Part shown: positions 1 to 53,094 of the stretch, piece by piece
Numbering within the stretch: the stretch's first letter is position 1
How the letters are laid out: each line of letters begins with the position of its first letter
NCBI GenBank assembly: GCA_964016885.1
Contig: OZ024753.1
Span: 35,154,001-35,218,000, forward strand
Reading direction: 5' to 3'
From: Eledone cirrhosa
Lineage: Eukaryota
DNA: 64,000 nucleotides
The notes under the pieces: model-generated
What the model was told of the DNA's origin: nothing
The model's database searches: none
The model's input: the letters and a program-made list of their open reading frames with translations, nothing else
Program-made: the position numbers and the translations under genes

Positions 1-411
1 ATATATATATATATATACATATATGTATATATATAAAATACGGCGATAGCTTACATTTCTAATAATTTCAAATCCACTCGCTGTTTCAAAAATATTCTTA
101 CTTGACATTAGAGTCGCTAAGTTTATAGCTTCTAATTTGAATGGAAAAGGACGGGTGATGTGTTGGTGTAAATGGTAGCACAGTGGTCCGAATAACCAAA
201 AATGTGGGTTCAACTCCCATGTACGTCAATACTCATCTTTTTCCATTTCTCCGAGTGTTCTTAACCCCACTATCAGGCTAAATAATTTCTTTAATTTCTT
301 TAGTCAAAATACGGCGATATATACATACATATATATATATATATATACATATATATATACATATATATATATATACATATATATATGATGGCTGCCCCCT
401 CGTTATCGAGA

Positions 412-2464: not shown

Positions 2465-3645
2465 TTGGTGTCATGAAAAACATACCCATGCTGGTGTCAT
2501 GAAAAACAGAGCCATGCTGGTATCCTAAAAAACATACCCATGCTGGTATCATAAAAAACATACCCATGCTGGTATCATAAAAAAACATACCCATGCTGGT
2601 GTCATAAAAAACATACCCATGCTGGTATCCTAAAAAACATACCCATGCTGGTATCCTAAAAAACATACCCATGCTGGTATCCTAAAAAACATACCCATGC
2701 TGGTATCCTAAAAAACATACCCATGCCGGTGTCCTAAAAAACATACCCATGCTGGTATCCTAAAAAACATACCCATATGGTATCCTAAAAAACATACCCA
2801 TGCTGGTATCCTAAAAAACATACCCATATGGTATCCTAAAAAACATACCCATGCTGGTGTCCTAAAAAACATACCCATGCTGGTGTCATAAAAAACATAC
2901 CCATGCTGGTGTCATGAAAAATATACCCATGCTGGTGTCCTAAAAAACATACCCATGCTGATGACATAAAAAACATACCCATGCTGGTGTCATAAAAAAC
3001 ATAGCCATGCTGGTATCATAAAAAACATACCCATCCTGGTGTCCTAAAAAACATACCCATGCTGGTATCCTAAAAAACATAGCCATGCTGGTATCATAAA
3101 AAACATACCCATGCTGGTGTCCTAAAAAACATAGCCATGCTGGTATCATAAAAAACATACCCATGCTGGTGTCATAAAAAACATACCCATGCTGGTATCC
3201 TAAAAAACATACCCATGCTGGTGTCATAAAAAACATAACCATGCTGGTATCATAAAAACATACCCATGCTGGTATCCTAAAAAACATACCCATGCTGGTG
3301 TCATAAAAAACATACCCATGCTGGTATCCTAAAAAACATACCCATGCTGGTATCCTAAAAAACATACCCATGCTGGTGTCCTAAAAAACATACCCATGCT
3401 GGTGTCCTAAAAAACATACCCATGCTGGTGTCCTAAAAAACATACCCATGCTGGTGTCCTAAAAAACATACCCATGCTGGTATCCTAAAAAACATACCCA
3501 TGCTGGTATCCTAAAAAACATACCCATGCTGGTGTCATAAAAAAACATACCCATGCTGGTATCATAAAAAAACATACCCACGCTGGTATCCTAAAAAACA
3601 TACCCATGCTGGTGTCCTAAAAAACATACCCATGCTGGTGTCACA
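2465..3645. repeat. 26-bp minisatellite (aaaaaacatacccatgctggtRtcMt), about 45 copies, inside a decayed RTE-tail element (~2320-3830)
   Basis: Direct tandem repeats. The flanks carry the aaaatgcaccc...gtaaag units and an (ATG)n tail typical of the RTE 3' UTR. Confidence 0.92.
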
Positions 3646-11167: not shown

Positions 11168-11645
11168 ATATATATACATATATATATATAATGTAGAAGG
11201 TGAGTAATATTGTAGAACAATAAAACTATGCATATATCAGATAAGTAGCACTCAACAATTGGTAGAACTGGAGTATATATTAAAGAAGTAATTAAAAGAT
11301 GGTTAAAATATATGGAACTTCTTTAACCATCTTTTAATTTCTTCTTTTATATATATATATATATATATATATCACATAATAAATGGAGAATCAGTGGTGT
11401 GACGAATTAAAATTTATCAGACATATTACAACATTTCTCTGGTGACCAGCTCGAGGCACAATCGATGCAGTTTCCAAATTTGGAAACTCTGCTTCGAAGA
11501 ATCGAGACGTATCTGAGGATCTTGCGATTTCAGAGTCAGGTTCGATCATCGCATCGATACTCTGCTCTGTAAGAGCATCGAGTGCTCAAACGGCCTACCG
11601 CATACGGACGCTTTAAGCATCCCACACCAATTATATATATATATA

Positions 11646-40881: not shown

Positions 40882-42470
40882 GTGAGGCAGTTACAGGAAA
40901 AGTACCTAGCTAAAAGTAAGCCACTCTACTTGGCATTTGTCGACCTTGAGAAAGCCTTTGACAGAGTTCCACGTGTTGTAATCTGGTGGGCTCTTAAAAA
41001 ACTAGGAGTAGATGAATGGCTTGTGAAAGCGGTACAAGCCATGTATAGGGGAGCAGTCAGCAAAGTTAGGATTAGCAATGAGTATAGCGAGGAATTTAGC
41101 GTACAGGTTGGGGCCCACCAGGGCTCTGTTCTTAGACCCCTCCTGTTCATCATAGTCCTGCAGGCAATAACAGAGGAGTTTAAGACCAGATGCCCATGGG
41201 AACTCCTGTATGCTGATGACCTCGCGCTTATAGCTGAATCTATGGTAGAACTAGAGAAGAAATTCCAAACTTGGAAGCAGGGACTAGAAAGAAAGGGTCT
41301 CAAAGTCAACATGACAAAGACTAAGGTCCTTGTAAGTAGACGAGAAAACAGAACCCAGATCCCCTCAGGGAAATGGCCTTGCTCAGTATGTAGGAAAGGT
41401 GTAGGTAGGAACTCCATTCTCTGCCCCAAATGCAAACAATGGGTACACAAGAGATGTAGCGGGATCTCAGGAAGCTTAATTAAGAATGTAGGCTTCACAT
41501 GCAGCAGCTGTGCTGGGACAGCAAACAGCCACAGGAAACAAGTACCACCAATCTCTGGGAGGGCTCTGTAGAAACAGTAGACAGCTTCTGCTACCTAGGT
41601 GACCGAATTAGCAGCGGAGGTGGGTGTTCAGAAAGTACAATAACTAGGGTAAGAATGGGATGGAAGAAGTTTAGGGAACTACTACCACTGCTAGCTGCAA
41701 AAGGCTTCTCCCTCAGAATGAAAGGCAGACTGTATGATGCGTGTATCTGAACAGCGATGTTGCATGGTAGTGAGACCTGGGCGCTGAAGGTGGAAGACTT
41801 ACGTAGATTAGAGAGAAACGAAGCCTGCATGCTCCGATGGATGTGTAACAGTAATATACGTGAACGACAAAGCATAAATGAATTGAGAGAGAGACTGAGC
41901 ATAAGAGGAATCAAATGCTGTGTGCAGGAGAGGCGGTTGCGCTGGTATGGACATGTGATGCGTATGAAGGATGACAGCTGCATAAAAAGGTGCAGAGCAC
42001 TAGAAGTTGATGGAAACCGCGGAGTGGGGAGACCCAAGATGACCTGGGATGAGATGATAAAGCCGACCTTACCCAATTACACCTCTCAAAGGCAATGACA
42101 CACGACCGTGACCTCTGGCGTCACGCAGTAATACAGAGCACCCGACCTCCCATGTGTAGAAGCTGAAGCATATAGACAATATGCCCCCACACCCCCCACC
42201 GCAAGGTGGTCGTGGAGGTGCCACGGCAAAAAAGCACCCAGCCCACACTGTAAAGTGGACGTGTAGGCGCCACGAAAAAGCACCCAGCACTCACTGTAAA
42301 TGAGGTTGGTGTTAGGAAGGGCATCCAGCTGTAGAAATCAAGCCAAATCAGTTCCTGTATGAGCAAGGCATGGTCAGCCGACCAGACACTGCCCACAACA
42401 GGACAACCCGTCTAACCCATGCTAGCGTGGAAGAACGGACGTAAAACGGTGATGATGATGATGATGATGA
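40882..42470 (+). mobile_element. 5'-truncated, decayed RTE-clade LINE (partial RT, Cys-rich insert, thumb domain, 3' UTR, (GAT)n tail)
   Basis: FVDLEKAFDRV, HQGSVL.PLLF, LYADD, FCYLG, RRLRWYGHV, GRPK.TW motifs. Frameshift near 41520-41560 and an in-frame TGA at 41748. Inserted in a TA-rich tract. Confidence 0.93.
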
Positions 42471-45400
42471 TATATAATTTATATGTATATGTATATATGT
42501 AAGCATATATATGTATGCTTGAATATATGTAATGTATGTATGTATATATGTATGTTTATATATATATATATGTGTGTTTTTGTGTGTGTGTGTGTGTGTG
42601 TGCAACACATACAAATATGTATATATGCATATGTGTGAATACATGTATATACATTAATATATATTGAAATATACGTGCTACTTTAAGGGCACAGACCCTT
42701 ATAGATAGAAATACAAATAAAGTTGACGTACACATCCAAACCTTTCAGTAATTACTCATATTTTTGACATACTTCTCTTTTCCCTGTTTAATCGTGAGAT
42801 TTTATCAGTGTTCTTATATTCCTTATCTGCCACCTGTTTTTACACCTCCACCTAGTCCTTGGTTATCTTTAGTAGAATCTAGTATGTTGCAAGCATTCAG
42901 GCCAGATCTGTAGCTTGAGAATACCTTCCTCTCTTTCTTTCTCTCCTTGACTAAAAAAATTTTGAAAATCATTTAGCTTATAAAAAAAAGTCCCCCTCTC
43001 CACTGGAACCGTTTTCGTTTTATTTGAAAGTGGAAGACATTAAATACACTGCTAACTAAAACTAAACATCTCATATAGCCTTATAATAGCTCTATCAACA
43101 CACAAGAGGTTATAGAAACAAAAGAGCTTAAATAATTTACATTATCTGTCAGAGGTTGTTGAAAAATATAACATACTTATCTTCAGGTTTGAAGTTAATG
43201 ATTATAGTTTTTTTATGATATGTCAAATAAACCTTAAGAGATAGGTTTACAGAATTGTAAAGTAACTATTATTGCTAAATACAAAGTAACTGTTTCCGGG
43301 TGTATTAGGGTGGAAGGTGGAGGTGGGTGCTCCTAAGAGCCAGTGCTTATTGTATGTTTGATCTTCACTAAGATACCAATCTATTAGAAGTAACATTTTT
43401 TGACAGCAACATAAACTAAAGGTAGTAAAATAAAGTGTACATCCCATATCATCATTTCATTATCATCTTTTTAGTTCCATTTTTCGATATAAATGAAATA
43501 TCTGCAGAGAATTTCAGCTCTAAAGCAAAGAGTTATTCAGATAATACCATAACTCAGCCATTTCCTCTTCTACAAGAAACTATTGACTTAATTTAAACCT
43601 TTCTTTTTCTCATTTGAGTAGGGAAACAATCTTTATTTAATGAAATTGAAAAATAATCCATTATATAAAAGAAAATCTAATAATTAGCTTTTGTTCTGGC
43701 TATTTACATTCTGAGTTCAAATCTTTTTGAGATCAACTTTGCATTTTGGGGTCGATACAATAAATAAGTTAGCATGTTGAACAAATCCTAGTGCTCCTAA
43801 AAACCAAACCTTACAATATTAAACAAAAAAGGACAAATTGAATAATGAAGTCTTAGATACCTATAAACAGACTGCAGTGGGCATGACTGCAGTTTCTTTG
43901 ACCATAGCTCTACTTGATCATGATTGGTTTGGGACTAAACAACCACAATATATATTAAAAAAAAAACAAGATTTCATATTTGTTATAAAAAAATAGATAA
44001 ATATAAAAAATAATTGTGTGTTATATGTGTGTGAATATATGTCTGTTACATGACAATGTAAATCACTGATTAAACCAGTTTTGTTATTTTCTGAAATATT
44101 CCTTTTGATTTTTTTAAACACTATCTTTATTTTTTTATAATTTATGTTATCATCATAATATGATTTCAACCTATAATATCTGTTTAATAGATCTTTCCAC
44201 TGTGATAGTGGTTGCTTTAGAAAACAATCTAGTTATTTGTAGCAGAACTTATAATCAATATATCTTCCAGCTCACCAATTTTCATTTCAGAAATCAATTG
44301 CCTTAAACTTTATTTATTGATGCAAATTAGTTCTTAACTTACAAGCAAATAAACAACAAAAAGGAGAAAATAAATAAATGAATGCATGAAGCTACAGGGA
44401 GAATGAATACACTATTTAAAATCCTTTCTTATCTTTTATATATTCTTTGCTTTATATATAATCTATAATGATTTAGCGGAATATCAGTTCTCTAATCAAA
44501 ATGTAGCATATATATTGTTAGAGGGTATTAAACATATGATAGTGAAAGTCATATAGTTGCAAACATAAGTGACCGATATGTTGCCTAGAGCCGTATATTT
44601 TATGTTGTATGTTATCACTACAAAACATTGAATGTTCTATCATACTCTTACTTAGCTACAGAACAGGTATTAAAGGAGAAAAACTATCTTATTGAATAAA
44701 AAAAAAAATAAAAAAATGTTAAATGCAAATTGGTGATAAATGTAAATTAATAGTTTGTTGCTTTATCAAACTGAGATTTGAAAAGACATCATATTATAAT
44801 GATGCTAATGTGACAATAGTGAAGATGGGTGGCTTAGTGGTTAGAGAATTAGGTTCATAATCATGAAGTTGTGACTTTTATTCCTGGGCTAGGTGATGCA
44901 TTATGTCCTTGAGCAAGACACTTTATTTCATGTTGCTCCTTCTGCCAGGAATTGTGATTGGCTGATAGTATCAGTAGCTGAAAAGACTAATGAAACATTG
45001 TTTTCTTGGTTCGATCTGACAAGTTCCACCACACTCAGTAAGAGAATGAAGTTTGCGCCCCCGCCCTCCCCTCTTCATCCCCAATAATTATATATTTTCT
45101 CCCCAAACTACCAAAACACACATCTATTTGTATATGTGCTACAATTTATGTACATTTTATGTTTATCGCATAACAAATTTTTTTTATATCTTGGTTGATA
45201 TTTGATAATAACAACTAAACTAATCATTACAACTAAATTGACCAAATTTGCCCAGCCCCCAATTCAGAAATGCTTCCTCTGCCCCTGCTTACAATGTGAA
45301 CTAGTTGTATTTTATCATGTCACTGGCATTGGTGAGATTAGATTGTTCCATGTGGAAGAACTAAAGAGTCTCCCTCTATTCTGTATTTCTCCTAGATGGG

Positions 45401-45844
45401 TTGGCTGTGAAACAGCCTGGAAAGATCATGTCTCACTTATACATTTCATTTTTTTCACATGACTTCTAAGGTTTGTCTAACAACAACCATTTTAAAGTGT
45501 GTACTATTAAGAAAACACACAATTCCTGTTTGTCTGTAACAGATGAACTAAAAACTTTTATCGGTGTTGCTGACTAGTCTAAAATTTTGCATATATTCTA
45601 ATTGTTAGAAATCATTTTTAATTAATTATGAAAATAATCAATATCTTCTGTCTTTGTGCGTTTCTCTGCATATACGCAGCCTCTATTTACACCATCATCA
45701 TCATCAGGATACACACCCACATACACATATACATATATATATTGTTATATTTGGGGATGGTCATTTGCCAATATTGGCAGGTTCAATCAGGGGTAACCAC
45801 AGTAAGTAGGGTACTCAATACATAGTAGGGTATATAATGTTTAA

Positions 45845-45889
45845 TTCCTGATGATTTCCTTCGAATGAAACAGTTCTGATCCTGTAGAA
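45845..45889 (+). ncRNA. Type-I hammerhead motif. Degenerate relatives at 18909-18958 (-) and 12405-12452 (+).
   Basis: TTC CTGATGA TTTC CTTC GAAT GAAA CAG TTCTGATC CTG TA GAA. Intact core, 4-bp helix III, GUA triplet, but only a 3-bp helix I. Confidence 0.7.
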
Positions 45890-47149
45890 GCCATTTATAT
45901 ATTAAACATTATATATATATGCTAAAAGTAAATGGAAAACAACAAAGAAAACAATCCAGTACAATGAAGATATATATTAGTTTAACACTTGATATAGTAG
46001 GAAAAGAGTCTTTATGTTTCGGATGCTAGTCCTTCAACAGAAAATAGAATGAGAAATAAAAGATGAAATAGAAAGAGAGAAGAGAGTGAGAAGTGGGAGA
46101 AACCTTATTATTATTGTTATATGGCGGTGGATTGGTAGTATCGGTAGAGCGTCGGAGACCATGCTTTGTGGCATAGTTACATATCTTTACATTCTGTGTT
46201 CAAATCCCGCTGAGTTTAGCTTTGCCTCTTTCATCCTTATGTGATCGATAAAATAAAGCACCAGTAATTCACTGGGGTCTGTTTAATCGATTTGTCCCTC
46301 CCTAACAATTGTTGGCCTTGTGCCTAAATCAGAAACCATTATTGTTGCCACTGTTGTCTTTGGCGTCATTATCATAATCGGTGTCAGCGTCCTCGTGATC
46401 ATACTTTTGATATCCAATCTATTGAAATGTATATAATTAATAGACGCCATGGTAAAAAGCAGCCAGTACTCACTGTAAATTAGGTTGGTATAAGGAAGGG
46501 CATCCAGCTATAGAAATCAAGCCAAAATCAGTTCTGTATGAGCAAGACATGGTAATCTGACCAGGCATTGCCCACAACAGGACAACCCATCTAACCCATG
46601 TTAGCATGGAAGAATGGACATAAAACGGTGATGATGATGATAATAATTATTATTAACATTATTGTTTTAAACATCATTTTAAAACAATGTAAACTGTTAA
46701 AATTATAACGAGGTATTTAAAAAAACAAAATATAAATTAAAAAAACAATCATGTTTTGCATAATTTATCCCTAAACCCTCTTCATGTAATGAATACAGCC
46801 TACATTCAGGTTTGAATATGCTTCTCAGATCTATCAATAGGTTATTGCCATCATAATTGTATTTTGTTAAAAAGGAAAAAAAAATATGTTAGCCTTTGTA
46901 AATATTATTGATTCATGATGTTTGTGTAATCAATATTGAAAAAGTACAAGTTTCACTCTGAAAATTCAGTTGTGCAGTAACTAGAAAATACTAAGTTAGA
47001 TTTTGGATAAATGCCTTATATATAAATCTGAGAAAAGAGAGGAAAAAATGCCAAATAATAAAAAAATATTATAAACATTGCAGAATTTTATTATCCTCCT
47101 GAAATAAGTTGTAAACAGTATGAACATTCATTTCTGAATACTATATATA

Positions 47150-48008
47150 TATAAGTATGTACACGTACATACATATATGTATACAGACGTACAGTAGTAT
47201 GTATATATATACATACATGCACACATATATATATGTACGTATGGATTCACCGAACATTTATTATAATGCTCGGTGTGTTTGTAAACAAACATCCCGTATT
47301 AAGCCGTAGTGTCTAGCAACCATCGTTGCTCGTTTGTTCAACACTGACAAAGGAACGCTGTACTAGTTTCAAGCTTATTAGCTATCGTCAGCAACGTATA
47401 CCTTCCTGCCAGATTGTTGAACGTATATACTTATCTTATGCATATTAACGGCTGAGTAGCCCAATTTGCATATCGAGTGGGTTAATCGGCCGGGTGCACC
47501 GAAAACGATAAACGGAAAAAATGAAACGAAATTTCATTTCCCACTCTTAGTACGTCTGTTACTTAAATATAAGTATGTACACGTACATACATATATGTAT
47601 ACAGACGTACAGTAGTATGTATATATATATACATACATGCACACATATGTACGTATGGATTCACCGAACATTTATTATAATGCTCGGTGTGTTTGTAAAC
47701 AAACATCCCGTATTAAGCCGTAGTGTCTAGCTTGCTACAGCGTTCCTTTGTCAGTGTTGAACAAACGAGCAACGATGGTTGCTAGACACTACGGCTTAAT
47801 ACGGGATGTTTGTTTACAAACACACCGAGCATTATAATAAATGTTCGGTGAATCCATATGTACATATATATATGTGTGCATGTATGTATATATATATACA
47901 TACTACTGTACGTCTGTATACATATATGTATGTACGTGTACATACTTATATTTAAGTAACAGCCGTACTAAGAGTGGGAAATGAAATTTCGTTTCATTTT
48001 TTCCATTT
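47150..48008. mobile_element. Retrozyme-like or Penelope-pLTR-like composite: ~1.4 tandem copies of a ~415-nt HHR-bearing unit on the - strand, joined head-to-head to a ~270-nt copy on the + strand
   Basis: 47151-47317 is repeated at 47569-47731 (offset 414-418). 47736-48008 is the reverse complement of the unit and starts at the HHR cleavage site. (TA)n on both sides. No ORF. Confidence 0.8.
47355..47397 (-). ncRNA. Intact minimal type-I hammerhead ribozyme motif
   Basis: Minus strand reads ACGTTG CTGACGA T AGCT AATA AGCT T GAAA CTAG TA CAGCGT. This gives a 6-bp helix I, a CUGANGA core, a 4-bp helix II, a palindromic CUAG helix III and a GUA triplet. Confidence 0.88.
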
Positions 48009-48120
48009 ATATATATATATGTACGTATTTATGTACATATATTATTATTTATGTATATATATAACTGTATATATATATATGTTGATTTAAAACTGCACTA
48101 TTCACAAGTGTTTTTTAACC

Positions 48121-48191
48121 TATTTTATCTGATGAAAATGCAAATGTCATCGCATGATGATATTTGTTTTTGAAATGCGCATAATAAAATA
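48121..48191 (+). ncRNA. Intact type-I hammerhead ribozyme motif
   Basis: Helix I TATTTTAT/ATAAAATA (8 bp). Core CTGATGA at 48129-35. 16-bp helix II with one T-T mismatch and GCAT loop. GAAA at 48172-75. Palindromic helix III TGCGCA. AUA cleavage triplet, with the cut predicted at 48183/48184. Confidence 0.88.
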
Positions 48192-48314
48192 CATGGAACT
48201 CTTTTAACCATCTTTTGATCTTATGTATTATTTATACTCCAGTCCTACAAACTGTAGAGTGCTACTTATCCGATATCTGCATTGCTTTATTGTACTACAA
48301 TAAAACTCACCTCC

Positions 48315-48352
<38 letters not shown>

Positions 48353-49761
48353 CTGTTGCTTAAACCATTTTGTTTGTTTACCCTAGCGTCCCCTTTATTT
48401 ACGTGTCCCAACGACTTTTTTTAGCCGTTGCTCGCACCAACCTGAGGTATATGGTCTTTAAAGCGATGAAATGCCTATGACGGTTGGAAGACCACTGATG
48501 AAGGACAAACTTTTTCATATGTAACCCATTTGCAACGCCGCAGCTCCATTATTATCATATTTACACACACATATATATATATATATATATGTGTGTGTGT
48601 CTGTGCATATATATATATACATACATTTATGCATGTATATATTTATGTATATACATATCTATGTGTGTATATATATATATATATGTGGGAGCGTGTGTGA
48701 GTATATATATATACATTTATGCTTGTATACATTTATGTATATATATATATATATATATATTTAAATGTGTGTGTGTGATATTCCTGACTAACAATGTGCT
48801 TGACTATAGAGACATGGGAGGTAGACTAAACACCAGCAATAGATATATTGATTGAACTAATAACTTCATCTTCTGCATTTCTGTTTATATTTGTCTCAGT
48901 TAGGACTGTGGTATTGTTGCTTATAATATTAAAACTCAGTATGACAACAAAGTTGCTGAGCAGTGTATATCCTGTGTATAGGAATATTGGTTGAAGATTA
49001 TTGCTGAGTATACTGTTTGGAATAGTACTTTCTTTTTACAGTTTTACTAAGGGAGGGAAGGAAGACTGTGTATTGGCAAAGTTCTTAAAACATTAACCCT
49101 TTAGCATTTACATTACTCTATATATACTATTGTATTTTTGTGGTAAAGGCTTTATCTCACATAATATCGAATCTATGAGATATCGATATTTATTTTGAGA
49201 ACAATACCTTAACATCAGTATGAGCAACCGGTTACAGCCGGTTTGAACAGAAAGAGGTAAGAGGTAATCTGGCTGGATATGGATTTTTTAAATGCTAAAG
49301 GGTTAAATAGAATGAAATTAGAAATAGAAGCTTTTGCTGTATTTTTTTTTTTACTAAAGAAATTTTGATCTGATAAACCCTCTGAGAAATGGAAAAAGAT
49401 GAGTATTGACGTCAATACTCATCTTTTTCCATTTCTTAGAGGGTTCTAAACCCCACTATCAGGCTAAAATTTCTTTAATCAAAACAAATACTCATTCGCT
49501 ATTTCAAAACATACTAATTTGTCATTAAATAGAATGTTTTGTGATATTCATTTTAGCTCTCTGTGCTGCTGAGGTCAACTTTGCCTTTCATCATTTTGAG
49601 TTCTATTCTTCCTCTATCTCTCTCTCACACACACTCTCTATGTCTCTCTCTCCCTCCCCCTCTCTCTCTCATTAAAATATTTCTTACATTATGAAATAAA
49701 ATTATTCCCAATTGTGATCTAATTGCCTAGAACATAATCTATTTTTTTGTTTTTCTTACAG

Positions 49762-49991
49762 CATGCTACAGCTGGAGCACCTCAGCCTTACCGACAAGTC
49801 CTCCTCCAGCAGCACACCCACAGCTTCACCAAAGTCAGCACCCGTAACACCCACACATGACACCACTAATGGAGTCGATGTGGGCTATCGAGATGGTAAC
49901 CAACGCAGCTTCTTTGAAGGGTTGCTTGGGTGTCTGCGTCCTGTGTGGACAATTATCGGGAAGGCAGCCGCTGCTGAATTTAAACAGCAAG
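49762..49991 (+). CDS. MAP3K13: DLK/LZK-family MAP3K exon with the conserved N-terminal motif FEGLLGCLRPVWTIIGKA
   Basis: ttttcttacag acceptor and G|gtacac donor. The motif matches vertebrate DLK/LZK FLEGLFGCL(R/K)PVW..IGKA. Confidence 0.93.
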
Positions 49992-50612
49992 GTACACAAC
50001 ACTTACTATTTCTTTTTAGCTATGTTTTCAATTATCTTGTTTTCCCCAAGTTTTATATTACAGAAAAAATAAAAACAAGAGGAAATATTACTCTAAAGAA
50101 AGATCCCTCAGTAGTTAATAAAATCCTGACATGGTCTTTAACAGCCCTCTATCATCTAGCTTTATGCAGTATTCATTCTTCATTTCCTTCTCAATCAACA
50201 GATTATTTACTTTGCCATTATGCCCTTTAGAGCTTATCCTGAAATAATAATCCACCTATACCTCTAACCCCACCTGTCCTTCGTTTAATGGCTGATCTTA
50301 TTTTATATCACTTTTGTTTGGTTCATCTTTGATACCAGAATAAAAATAAGTTTTAAAGTTAACATATTGATTTGCAGAATTTTGAAGACTAAAGAGTATA
50401 CACCATTATTCTTTATCAATAGTTTCCAGAGGAAATTTTGTATCAATATTTTTAATAAAAGTCTCATTTCTCTCTATGAATATCTTCAAATTGAACCTTT
50501 TTGTTCCAACTTGACTAAAACTGGCTCTTGTTCTGTAAAACAAACCACTCATTTTTGAAGGATCCTATTTAAATTAAAATCTTCCAACACAATTTTATAT
50601 GAGAGCTATATA

Positions 50613-50768
50613 CAGTGAAATTCTGTTATAACGAAATTCACAGGGTATAAAAATAAATTCTTTGTAACGAAAAATTCTTTATAATGAGATCGACTGAAAC
50701 AAATCGAGCATTTGTTTGTTATTACCTCATGGATTGAAATGGTATTTGTTATAACAGAATTTTACCTG
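50613..50768. mobile_element. Tigger-like MITE
   Basis: TA-CAGTGAAATTCTGTTATAAC...GTTATAACAGAATTTTACCTG-TA. Confidence 0.7.
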
Positions 50769-51032
50769 TATTAAGTTACTATCATCATAATGAAATAATT
50801 AATAATTTTAGTATATCCCTCAACATTATTTCCTAGAGGTTGACTTTGCCTTTCATCCTTACGGGGTCGATAAAATAAAGTACCAGTAATGCACTGGGTA
50901 ATTGCTGGCCTTGTGCCTAAAGTAGAAACAATTATTTCCTAGTTAAATAAAATAGAGTTTATTTCATTAGAAATGTTATTGTCAAAGTATTAATAATATA
51001 GAAAAAATAAATTGATTGTTTATTTGTTGTAG

Positions 51033-51216
51033 ATGACTGGGAAACTCCATTTGAGAACATTACTGATCTTCAATGGCTTGGGAGTGGCGCACAAGGAGCT
51101 GTATTTCTGGGTAAACTCAACTCAGAAGAAGTTGCAGTTAAAAAAGTTAGAGATGTCAAAGAAACAGATATAAAAAATCTACGGAAATTAAATCATCCTA
51201 ATATTATTTCGTTTAA
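51033..51216 (+). CDS. MAP3K13: DLK/LZK kinase domain exon ([27 protein letters not shown]...VAVKKV...NHPNIISFK)
   Basis: Gly-rich loop [10 protein letters not shown] and VAVK lysine, typical of DLK/LZK. AG at 51031-32, GT at 51217, phase 1 to phase 2. Not in the supplied ORF track; translated by hand. Confidence 0.97.
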
Positions 51217-52544
51217 GTAAGCTTTTGTCTTCTTTGCTTTTTATTACTTTTTGAAAAGAAAAAAAAAAAGGTGGTGGGTTGGCAGGGTGATTAGAACATC
51301 TGATGAAATGCCTTAGAGTAATTTGTTACAATATTCTACCTTCTGAGTTCAAGTTTTACTGAAGTCAACTTTGCCTTTCATCGTTCTGAGCTTGATAAAA
51401 TAAAGTATCAGTCAAGTACTTTGACAGTACAACTCACTCTTCCCTTCCCTCGAAATTACAGGCCTCGTGCCTAAATTAAAAGCAATCATTTTTTTAATAT
51501 AAATGCTTGTTATATAGCTCTGCATAATTAACACTCAAAACATGCACTGAATGAAGTACTGGTGAATTCTTAAATTTAAGGTCCTTAAAGAAGCATATTT
51601 TTTAAAGTTTGGTGGTTACTCTCTTGCATCCTTATCATGATGCTCAGCTTTTCATTGATGACTTCAGAACAAACATACAGAAGTGGCAAAGGATGAGAGC
51701 TCTGTGAGTTTAAAAGTGCCCTACTTCGTTATAAGTTTCATGGTGAGCAATGTATTGAGAATGGGAAGTACTTTGTTGGACTTCAATCTTTAGACCAAAT
51801 AAGGATCTTACCACCTTGGAATAGAAAAATTGTGATGTCATCTGGTCATTTGTCCTCCCCTCGATCTAATCCCACTCGTTCCAGCTACAACAAGAAGCCA
51901 ACTTTGTTTCTGCCCCATTTAATATCATTAAGAATGCCATGTGAAAGGAAGCATCTGGTGCTGAGGTGACATGACAGTCAATAACATCCAAAGTGTCTAC
52001 TGTAGACCTACAATGTCATTTGTATTATTCATAGATTTGGAGACCGAGCCTGCATGAAATACCAAATGCCAAGATGGTTGTAATTTCTTTATTTACCAGA
52101 GACACAAATGCAATTTAGTAAAATCAACATTGTAATGAGTAAAAATGTTATTGTTATAACATAACATAGTGAAGAAATGAACTCAGTTAATTTCAAGAAA
52201 GGAAAAAGGAAATTTATTTATGTGAATAGAAATTGCTACAATTGAGAATTAAAACTATGTTGAAGAATCCTTTTACTAAGAGTTTACCTCCATTTCTACA
52301 GAGCTTACTACTATGAAATTCTATTTTGATGTTGAAAGTAGCCATTTCAGGGCAATACCTTAATGTGAAAAAAAAAAGATGTAAAACATTGTTGCATTCA
52401 CAATTTTATCTGAAAAAAAAAAAATTCTAGATTTTAAAAAAACTATAAATGTATGCATAAGCTTATTAGTTGAAATGTCTTTAATATGTTTGCTAAAACA
52501 AATCATTATTTTATTATTATTATTATTACTTTTTTTTATTGCAG

Positions 52545-52736
52545 AGGGGTTTGTACCCAAGCACCATGCTTCTGTATTATAATGGAGTATTGTCCTTATG
52601 GGCAACTTTATGAAATTCTACGTGATGGAAAAGAAATACCTCCAGCACTTATACTAGATTGGTCTAAGCAAATTGCAAGTGGCATGAATTATCTACATTC
52701 TCATAAAATTATTCACAGAGATTTAAAGTCACCAAA
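52545..52736 (+). CDS. MAP3K13: DLK/LZK kinase domain exon ([16 protein letters not shown]...HRDLKSP)
   Basis: Catalytic loop HRDLKSPN is split across the junction. tgcag acceptor, AA|gtaagt donor. Confidence 0.97.
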
Positions 52737-52924
52737 GTAAGTTTAAATGAATTATTCTTTTTTTTTTCAAATTTCTTTCTCTACAAATCTATTTTTGTTG
52801 CACTAAAATGAAATGAAATACAAAAGAAATTATATAGAAAACTGTAATAATCCTTACAACTAGAAAAAACCTGTGAAGATCTTTTTTCCGTTATGGTCCA
52901 TCTGGTTCCTTACCACAATTTCTT

Positions 52925-52967
<43 letters not shown>

Positions 52968-53094
52968 TAATTTTGAAATGTTTTCATTGCTTGTTTATGG
53001 TTATAAGAATTTTATCAGTTATTATCAAAATAAAAGAAAATATTTTAATTTCTTGTTTGTTTATTTTTTTAATTTAATTAATTGTTTATTTCAG

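What the first reader, a model, noticed from the sequence alone, without database searches (positions are those of the whole stretch)
47150..48008. Retrozyme-like element: a ~415-nt non-coding tandem unit with an intact hammerhead, plus an inverted copy starting at the cleavage site
Seen: read on the minus strand, 47731 to 47150 is about 1.4 head-to-tail copies of a ~415-nt unit with a perfect minimal HHR (47355-47397, GUA^CAGCGUU). The unit is rich in small hairpins (caccgaacatt...aatgctcggtg; agcaac...gttgct). A third copy on the + strand begins TA-CAGCGTTCC at 47736, essentially at the predicted cut, and runs ~270 nt into (TA)n. The copies differ at only a few bases. Known: metazoan non-LTR retrozymes are tandem non-coding units of a few hundred nt with minimal type-I HHRs that yield circular RNAs, and Penelope-like elements carry similar HHRs in their pLTRs. 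Inference: this is a recent insertion copied from a self-cleaved monomer and a circular or multimeric RNA, i.e. a candidate cephalopod circRNA/retrozyme family.
Basis: partly seen in the sequence, partly recalled or inferred. Interest (0 to 1): 0.9.

Follow-up and report, generated by a model that had tools for sequence, protein, structure and literature searches.

The report
Octopus ribozyme repeat hitchhiking on Penelope
This is one of more than 11,000 copies of a ~420-base non-coding repeat carrying a hammerhead ribozyme in an octopus genome, and its insertions end the same way as the genome's Penelope-like retrotransposons, so it likely spreads as a self-cut RNA circle copied by their enzymes; the kind of element is known, but its long-proposed helper now becomes testable.

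Summary
The structure is real: 1.4 tandem units (47731→47146, minus strand) with a type-I hammerhead, head to head with a 275-nt inverted copy (47736-48010), flanked by (TA)n, in an intron of an Octopus MAP3K13-like gene. The family is large: 11,418 exact hammerhead matches, dispersed insertions and a ~111-kb array. Core bases are invariant and the stems covary across subfamilies and a sister family.

5' ends are not enriched at the cut (39/8,950 against controls 19/6,765 and 60/11,418), so this copy starting there is likely chance. The ribozyme is canonical-like with a weak helix III, not 'minimal'.

The informative signal is at the 3' ends. They fall at two fixed sites 57 nt apart, and 40 of 42 inverted pairs have one short and one tailed arm, as in 6 of 6 Neptune Penelope-like (PLE) insertions here. 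The youngest insertions have near-identical units sharing private variants across both arms, which fits rolling-circle copying of one RNA. No homology was found to the terminal repeats of three sampled PLE families.

Verdict: a new octopus member of the non-LTR retrozymes, with insertion-site evidence for mobilisation by PLEs in trans. Cleavage and circles are untested.

The parts
47146..47731 (-). Main arm, 586 nt = 1.4 units. The 5' end is truncated 44 nt after a cut site; the 3' end is the 'short' fixed end (~220 nt after the cut) running into (TA)n
47146..47563 (-). One full 418-nt unit, 37% GC, strongly self-paired; no ORF over about 50 codons from an ATG in a natural multimer of the family
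47355..47397 (-). Type-I hammerhead: helix I 6 bp, core CUGACGA (47391-47385), helix II with U·U at its base and loop UAAUAA, GAAA (47370-47367), palindromic loop III CUAG, predicted cut 47361/47360
47333..47423 (-). Extended helix I (internal loop plus two further stems) around the ribozyme
47508..47563 (-). 57-nt 'tail' segment between the two fixed 3' ends; it contains a hairpin and is kept in the sister family
47732..47737 (.). Head-to-head junction with a 4-6-nt patch that matches the adjacent hairpin (likely a brief template switch)
   Evidence: sequence
47736..48010 (+). Inverted 5'-truncated arm, 275 nt, starting 0-2 nt before the cut, lacking the ribozyme core, ending at the 'tailed' fixed end into (TA)n
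47140..47153 (.). (TA)n target remnant, left flank
48007..48020 (.). (TA)n target remnant, right flank
48077..48319 (+). Separate neighbour: solo terminal repeat (pLTR, tailed form) of an autonomous Neptune-type PLE, with its own different hammerhead at 48129

Best explanation
This is one insertion of a non-coding ~420-nt hammerhead repeat family with over 11,000 copies in an octopus genome (a non-LTR retrozyme), likely copied into (TA)n microsatellites by the reverse transcriptase and endonuclease of a Penelope-like element acting in trans, likely from a circular RNA monomer. Shown: copy number, tandem and inverted architecture, two fixed 3' ends with one on each arm, scattered 5' ends, covarying ribozyme stems, near-identical units within young insertions, and intact young PLEs with the same end rule. 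Inferred: (1) tandem copies are transcribed; (2) two ribozymes pair through the ACUAGU palindrome and cut out monomers, which a host ligase circularises; (3) a GIY-YIG endonuclease nicks (TA)n, and the two target strands prime at two TA-like sites 220 and 277 nt after the cut; (4) the RT runs round the template through the re-ligated cut site, giving 0.2 to several units per arm; (5) the two cDNAs join head to head by microhomology; (6) some insertions later grow into satellite arrays by unequal exchange.
For: Copy number: 11,418 exact matches to a 29-nt hammerhead pattern, control 0. 3' ends: 167 of 197 fall in two narrow classes, and 140 of these 167 run into TA-rich DNA. Of 65 head-to-head pairs, 42 have both ends standard and 40 of those are short + tailed (38 of 40 after removing two duplicated stretches, p = 1.5e-9). 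The autonomous Neptune family obeys the same rule in 6 of 6 pairs with a 90-nt tail. The 468-nt sister family does so in 9 of 9 pairs with both ends standard, among 11 pairs in 16 stretches. PMC8557442 lists partial tandems, an inverted 5' copy, a tail at one end and microsatellite bias as PLE marks. Helpers exist: 55 of 55 scored hits at 98-100% identity to an 816-aa RT/GIY-YIG ORF, 54 without a stop. Single template: the two arms share inherited alleles 121 of 165 times (73%) against 11% for random arms in 43 pairs, and 6 locus-private alleles are in both arms. L164 has 7 units of 422 nt with one substitution in all, and carries a private allele in every unit of both arms; L042 has 7 units with no substitution. 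Ribozyme under selection: 7 of 14 pairs change on both sides across 11 lineage types while the core and the CUAG loop are invariant.
Against: No cleavage assay and no direct detection of a circle. Helix II has a U·U base and helix III is one pair; the monomer fold evaluates at only -1.8 kcal/mol and the minimum-energy fold is not the active one. In the Xenopus preprint 8 of 9 retrozyme dimers did not cleave. L167 has two alleles each missing from 2 of 7 full units, not in a simple block, which a pure monomer circle does not predict. Identical units can also come from a homogeneous multimeric transcript or from later homogenisation. 44 of 165 inherited alleles differ between arms, and 63 private alleles lie in one arm only (expected from later mutation, but not separated here). 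No sequence homology to the three PLE families sampled, so the helper is unidentified. The shared end motif CTTATAT occurs in both the Neptune and the Poseidon-type repeat and does not pick one. The 11 rows of the covariation test are related and hand-chosen by lineage, so its shuffle control overstates significance.
Confidence: 0.68

Rival explanations
1. Same PLE-driven insertion, but the template is a linear multimeric transcript of an existing tandem array whose internal ribozymes have not cut; circles, if made, are not the intermediate.
For: Read-through of the cut site in over 98% of copies fits uncut RNA equally well. The ribozyme looks weak. L167 is internally mixed. Homogeneous young arrays exist that could serve as source genes (L042, L164).
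Against: An allele private to one locus and present in all 7 units of both arms (L164) needs a one-monomer bottleneck at or just before insertion. The large C28 array has 6-8% divergence between units, unlike young insertions. Covariation shows the ribozyme fold has been kept across lineages.
Confidence: 0.2
2. The unit is the orphan terminal repeat (pLTR) of an unseen autonomous PLE, and tandem arrays arise after insertion by local amplification (the scenario discussed in bioRxiv 10.64898/2026.07.22.740005).
For: PLE-type ends. Long arrays do show block-wise shared variants typical of unequal exchange (L041, L163, L165, L168). Only three of many PLE families were checked for homology.
Against: The end listings showed scattered 5' flanks and no recurring upstream ORF junction; the one repeated flank (L269) is a retrozyme inserted antisense into a PLE. 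Tandem units occur in both inverted arms of very young insertions with shared alleles. Several successive subfamilies and a 468-nt sister family all propagate as ORF-less units. Flanks of all loci were not screened by tblastn, only five stretches plus an ORF listing.
Confidence: 0.08
3. One reading: the inverted arm is a run-off copy of a self-cleaved linear monomer, so its 5' end marks the cut.
For: This arm starts 0-2 nt from the cut; 3 of 198 sampled 5' ends do (this locus, L006, L025).
Against: No genome-wide excess: 39/8,950 against 19/6,765 and 60/11,418 with patterns of equal capture chance. 7 of the 30 cut-site hits that were fetched still have ribozyme sequence upstream by the script's flag and are small indels. 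The junction patch supplies microhomology.
Confidence: 0.03
4. Assembly artefact or chance microsatellite pattern.
For: The unit contains TA-rich runs; long reads over this exact locus were not available.
Against: The same architecture with different junctions occurs in 65 pairs among 111 stretches. The three copies differ at several bases. Contigs of public runs hold the family and its TA-joined tail end at 47508 (the best holder may be the source sample).
Confidence: 0.01

Closest known systems
Animal non-LTR retrozymes (Cervera & de la Peña 2020, PMC7229834; mussel, coral, axolotl)
   Same: Non-coding 150-450-bp tandem unit, GC under 45%, type-I hammerhead, thousands of copies, dimers to long arrays, self-paired RNA, co-occurrence with PLEs. 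Helix III is like axolotl HHR_Amex1 (one pair, palindromic tetraloop) and the U·U base of helix II is like HHR_Amex2.
   Different: Here cleavage and circRNA are not shown. The main text has no occurrence of 'inverted', 'octopus' or 'cephalopod' (its supplement could not be read), so the inverted arms and the short/tailed end rule are not described there as far as I could see.
EN+ Penelope-like elements, Neptune clade (Craig et al. 2021, PMC8557442; Cervera & de la Peña 2014, PMC4209133)
   Same: 5' truncation, partial tandems, inverted 5' copy, tail on one end only, (TA)n targets, hammerhead near the 3' end.
   Different: No ORF. The hammerhead has canonical helix sizes (6 and 4 bp) rather than the long helix II of PLE min-HHRs such as the neighbour at 48129. 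The tail is 57 nt (30-40 in the paper, 90 in this genome's Neptune). No homology to three sampled families.
Xenopus retrozymes as PLE derivatives (Li, Clavereau, Pollet, bioRxiv 10.64898/2026.07.22.740005)
   Same: Non-autonomous tandem HHR repeats tied to PLEs; dispersed monomers and clustered multimers.
   Different: That work rests on co-occurrence and pLTR homology (24 of 57 families matched known TEs, nearly all PLEs), sampled no mollusc, and does not discuss tails or inverted arms. Here the link is the insertion footprint, without detected pLTR homology.
Non-autonomous Chlamys/MRC1 elements (PMC8557442 passage)
   Same: Non-autonomous PLE riders with multicopy head-to-tail insertions.
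   Different: Those generally share 3'-end sequence with their autonomous partner, and most Chlamys lack canonical hammerheads.

Membership tests
Non-LTR retrozyme | Tandem unit of about 150-450 bp, GC under 45-50% | tested here: met
   418-427 nt, 37% GC; dimers to a ~111-kb array
Non-LTR retrozyme | Type-I hammerhead in each unit with intact core | tested here: met
   Core invariant and 7 of 14 pairs covary in 11 lineage types; 11,418 exact matches. No Rfam hit.
Non-LTR retrozyme | No protein coding; no LTR/PBS/PPT organisation | tested here: met
   Longest ATG-started frame 51 codons in a natural multimer; no tRNA gene in 46500-48700; head-to-tail units. PBS and PPT were not searched for separately.
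Non-LTR retrozyme | Dispersed, high copy, mobile | tested here: met
   Copies on many contigs at 97-99% identity; successive subfamilies
Non-LTR retrozyme | Self-cleavage (as monomer or dimer) | not testable with these tools
   Needs in vitro transcription; the weak helix III predicts dimer dependence (by analogy)
Non-LTR retrozyme | Expression as monomer-length circular RNA | not testable with these tools
   Needs Northern or divergent RT-PCR; only indirect genomic support
Non-LTR retrozyme | Target-site duplication longer than 4 bp when present | tested here: inconclusive
   Masked by (TA)n; 3 candidates among the solo arms listed; one 9-nt duplication in L269
PLE-mobilised element (works like) | Inverted 5'-truncated copy adjacent to the 5' end | tested here: met
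   65 head-to-head pairs in 111 stretches
PLE-mobilised element (works like) | Tail extension on one end only | tested here: met
   40 of 42 pairs; Neptune control 6 of 6; sister family 9 of 9
PLE-mobilised element (works like) | Microsatellite insertion bias | tested here: met
   140 of 167 standard 3' ends run into TA-rich DNA; no genome background rate was computed
Autonomous PLE | RT + GIY-YIG ORF between pLTRs | tested here: not met
   No ORF in the unit or between tandem units
pLTR-derived retrozyme (Li et al. 2026) | Sequence homology to the pLTR of a resident PLE | tested here: inconclusive
   None against 30 loci each of three PLE families; many other families unsampled
PLE minimal hammerhead (min-HHR) | Long helix II (7-8 bp), short helix I, unpaired base before helix II, G10.1-C11.1 | tested here: not met
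   Helix II 4 bp with U·U, helix I 6 bp plus extension

The most novel reading that the evidence does not exclude
Octopus genomes carry at least two sister families of ribozyme circles (about 11,000 hammerheads each) that parasitise Penelope-like enzymes purely by structure, without sharing their sequence. Each insertion records the reaction: one circular RNA is primed from both strands of a nicked (TA)n target at two fixed sites and copied round and round in both directions. This would be a direct genomic footprint of rolling-circle reverse transcription of a retrozyme by a PLE, an explanation for the PLE 'tail', and a source of thousands of long inverted repeats in introns of an animal with heavy A-to-I editing.
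Probability: 0.4. Interest if true: 0.75.

Novelty: new member of a known kind. Interest (0 to 1): 0.52.

Why it matters
That PLEs mobilise animal retrozymes through circular RNA has been proposed since 2020 on co-occurrence and, in 2026, on pLTR homology in frogs; the papers read here give no insertion-site evidence. This family supplies such evidence (one short and one tailed arm in 40 of 42 insertions, as for a resident Neptune element) in a genome that also has dozens of intact, near-identical PLE ORFs. That gives a ready substrate-enzyme pair for an in vitro PLE assay, which PMC8557442 names as the missing step, and a minimal 420-nt template for mapping what PLE RT recognises. The inverted arms would also form 200-bp-plus RNA duplexes in host introns. 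The class itself is known, also from a mollusc, so the surprise is moderate.

Tried and rejected
Expression: no RNA holder listed among 6 public runs; the 4 runs laid were contigs of unrecorded kind, which cannot show starts, ends or strand. Rfam: no hammerhead family at gathering or E ≤ 10; the miRNA hits are TA-repeat noise. Pile-up of 5' ends at the cut: tested and rejected. An apparent arm-specific variant at unit position 272 was a strand-dependent gap placement in a T run and was masked. RNA-editing signature: A>G at 12 sites against T>C at 4 among template-borne alleles, p = 0.08; not claimed. Parent PLE: no homology to Neptune-1, Neptune-2 or Poseidon-type loci; a relaxed hammerhead pattern found a sister retrozyme and an older subfamily, not a PLE. 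Pfam and PDB sequence searches did not recognise the PLE ORF; its identity rests on Atlas look-alikes with GIY-YIG/RVT_1/HTH_animal and on motifs read from the translation (YRDD, Cys linker, GIY-YIG-like; the clade name 'Neptune' is recalled, guided by PMC8557442). The target-site duplication search was largely uninformative. The bacterial promoter scan is irrelevant to this host. Literature searches for an octopus or cephalopod retrozyme found none (listings only). The supplement of PMC7229834 was unreadable, one of the files of PMC4209133 was not searched, and bioRxiv supplements are closed; any could list cephalopod motifs. Repbase and Dfam were not available, so the family may already be catalogued as an unnamed repeat.

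Full report
Observation. The minus strand from 47731 to 47146 holds 1.4 head-to-tail units, and a 275-nt inverted copy follows at 47736-48010 after a 4-nt patch; both outer ends merge into (TA)n. A pattern scan of the whole window found two hammerhead-like motifs, this one (core at 47391) and one at 48129. Rfam recognises neither. The host is an octopus: the exon at 49763-49990 is 100% identical to an O. vulgaris MAP3K13-like protein, and the element lies between coding exons at 36161-36331 and 49751-49990, with the ribozyme antisense to the gene.

The ribozyme. Helix I is 6 bp with an internal loop and a long extension. Helix II is 4 bp with U·U at its base and the loop UAAUAA. Helix III is one A-U pair around the palindrome CUAG. 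By the definitions in PMC4209133 (parts 1-2 of 4 read) these are canonical metazoan sizes, not the PLE minimal type. PMC7229834 (sections 14, 15, 17 and passages) describes both weak features in axolotl retrozymes, which cleave mainly as dimers. In 30 copies of this family one helix I pair occurs as U·G 18, A-U 8 and G·U 4 times. With the older variant and the sister family (11 hand-picked lineage types) 7 of 14 pairs change on both sides while core and loop III stay fixed; slid controls give 0-2. The rows are related, so this shows a maintained fold, not a rate.

Family. A 29-nt pattern matches 11,418 times (control 0); this misses variants such as the UAACAA loop. Copies range from fragments to a ~111-kb array on C28 that also begins with an inverted truncated copy. 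Several subfamilies succeed each other. A relaxed pattern gave 11,346 further matches (control 11); the first 100 listed are mostly a 466-469-nt sister family, 67% alike over 144 nt, with the same loop III. Contigs of public runs under three coded organism labels hold the family; one low-depth contig (X5) keeps the ribozyme and the tail with a different middle.

Ends. I mapped 199 arms in 111 non-redundant stretches. These were chosen from about 285 loci then held, leaving out overlapping loci, C28 array pieces, most PLE loci, the 30 loci selected for a break at the cut, and L269. About ten short TA-only arms in that set may be spurious. 3' ends: 81 at 208-228 nt after the cut, 86 at 268-282, 30 elsewhere. 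5' ends are spread over all ten bins (13-37 each). Of 65 head-to-head pairs, 42 have two standard ends; 40 are short + tailed, 1 short + short and 1 tailed + tailed. The window's insertion is a typical short + tailed pair. An autonomous Neptune-type element (816-aa ORF; 55 scored copies at 98-100%) shows the same rule in 6 of 6 pairs visible in 30 loci, and the sister family in 9 of 9. PMC8557442 (passages) gives exactly these features as PLE-specific and not seen in LINE insertions.

The cut site. Patterns requiring four mismatches just upstream of an exact anchor gave 39/8,950 at the cut, 19/6,765 at position 48 and 60/11,418 at the start of the core, with no difference. So reverse transcription passes the cut site in nearly all copies.

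Template. In 43 pairs the arms share inherited alleles in 121 of 165 cases against 11% for random arms; 6 locus-private alleles are in both arms and 63 in one. Of 8 insertions examined unit by unit, 5 had two or more full units: L164 (7 units, one substitution), L042 (7 units, none, small indels), L043 (4 units, one with two changes), L097 (2 units, two changes) and L167 (7 units, mixed). A private allele in every unit of both arms of L164 needs a one-monomer bottleneck, most simply a circle; L167 is the counter-example. Long arrays show block-wise variants and 2-8% internal divergence, as expected from later expansion.

Mechanism. Shown: architecture, end rule, read-through, shared alleles, conserved fold, intact candidate helpers. 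Inferred: dimer cleavage, circularisation, nicking of (TA)n, priming from both target strands at two sites 57 nt apart, rolling-circle synthesis, head-to-head joining by microhomology (most junctions overlap by 0-6 nt). I put 0.68 on the whole chain and about 0.9 on PLE-type insertion alone. The helper is not identified: three PLE families share no sequence with the unit.

Novelty. Non-LTR retrozymes are known, also from a mussel. PLE mobilisation is proposed in PMC7229834 and PMC7761336 (passages) and argued from homology in bioRxiv 10.64898/2026.07.22.740005 (parts 1-3 of 5 and a term search). Searches for a cephalopod case found none. I file this as a new member of a known kind, whose value is that it turns the helper hypothesis into a concrete test.

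Noticed in passing
window 48077-48319 (+): Solo tailed pLTR of the Neptune-type PLE, about 70 nt from the finding in the same TA-rich patch, with a different hammerhead (long helix II, loop UGCGCA) in the sense direction of the host pre-mRNA. Another fragment lies at 11189-11367.
   Followed up: partly
L287-L315, L321-L329 (e.g. G000:C1:5,738,326-5,752,444): Second retrozyme family, 466-469-nt unit, same CUAG loop III, covarying helices, 3' ends at about 232 and 304, short + tailed in 9 of 9 pairs; up to about 11,000 copies.
   Followed up: partly
G000:C28:109,956,737-110,067,695 (L036-L039): About 111-kb satellite array of the unit (roughly 260 copies) starting with an inverted truncated copy; units 6-8% diverged.
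   Followed up: partly
L040:4134-6584 (-), L106-L135: Very young Neptune-type PLE family, at least 55 near-identical ORFs of 816-821 aa; Pfam does not recognise it.
   Followed up: partly
L236-L265: Young Poseidon-type PLE family with many open frames of about 777 aa; its hammerhead has the U3-A8 core variant and its tailed ends run into (TC)n or (TA)n.
   Followed up: partly
L269:1879-2777: Retrozyme inserted antisense into a PLE endonuclease region with a 9-nt target duplication; an inverted copy of the chimera lies to the left, suggesting it was carried along by the PLE.
   Followed up: partly
L172, L174, L271-L273: An older subfamily has matched 4-nt expansions on both sides of one palindromic hairpin, a compensatory indel.
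   Followed up: no
L286, L317-L320: Older variant with a paired or C-opened base of helix II and a GUU cut triplet, suggesting the U·U and GUA of the young family are derived.
   Followed up: partly
window 36161-55399 (+): MAP3K13/DLK-like gene; the finding sits in its first coding intron, where the inverted arms could form a duplex of about 220-230 bp in pre-mRNA.
   Followed up: partly
family-wide: Template-borne alleles show A>G at 12 sites against T>C at 4 (p = 0.08), a weak hint of RNA editing before insertion.
   Followed up: partly
window 157-228 and 23811-23868: Two tRNA-like Rfam hits, likely tRNA-derived SINE heads.
   Followed up: no
window 40234-41568 (+): Frame ending in a reverse-transcriptase-like stretch (LINE-like by recalled motifs).
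   Followed up: no
window 29001-32000 and 2943-3380: Strongly skewed C/A-rich tract, and a short-period tandem repeat.
   Followed up: no
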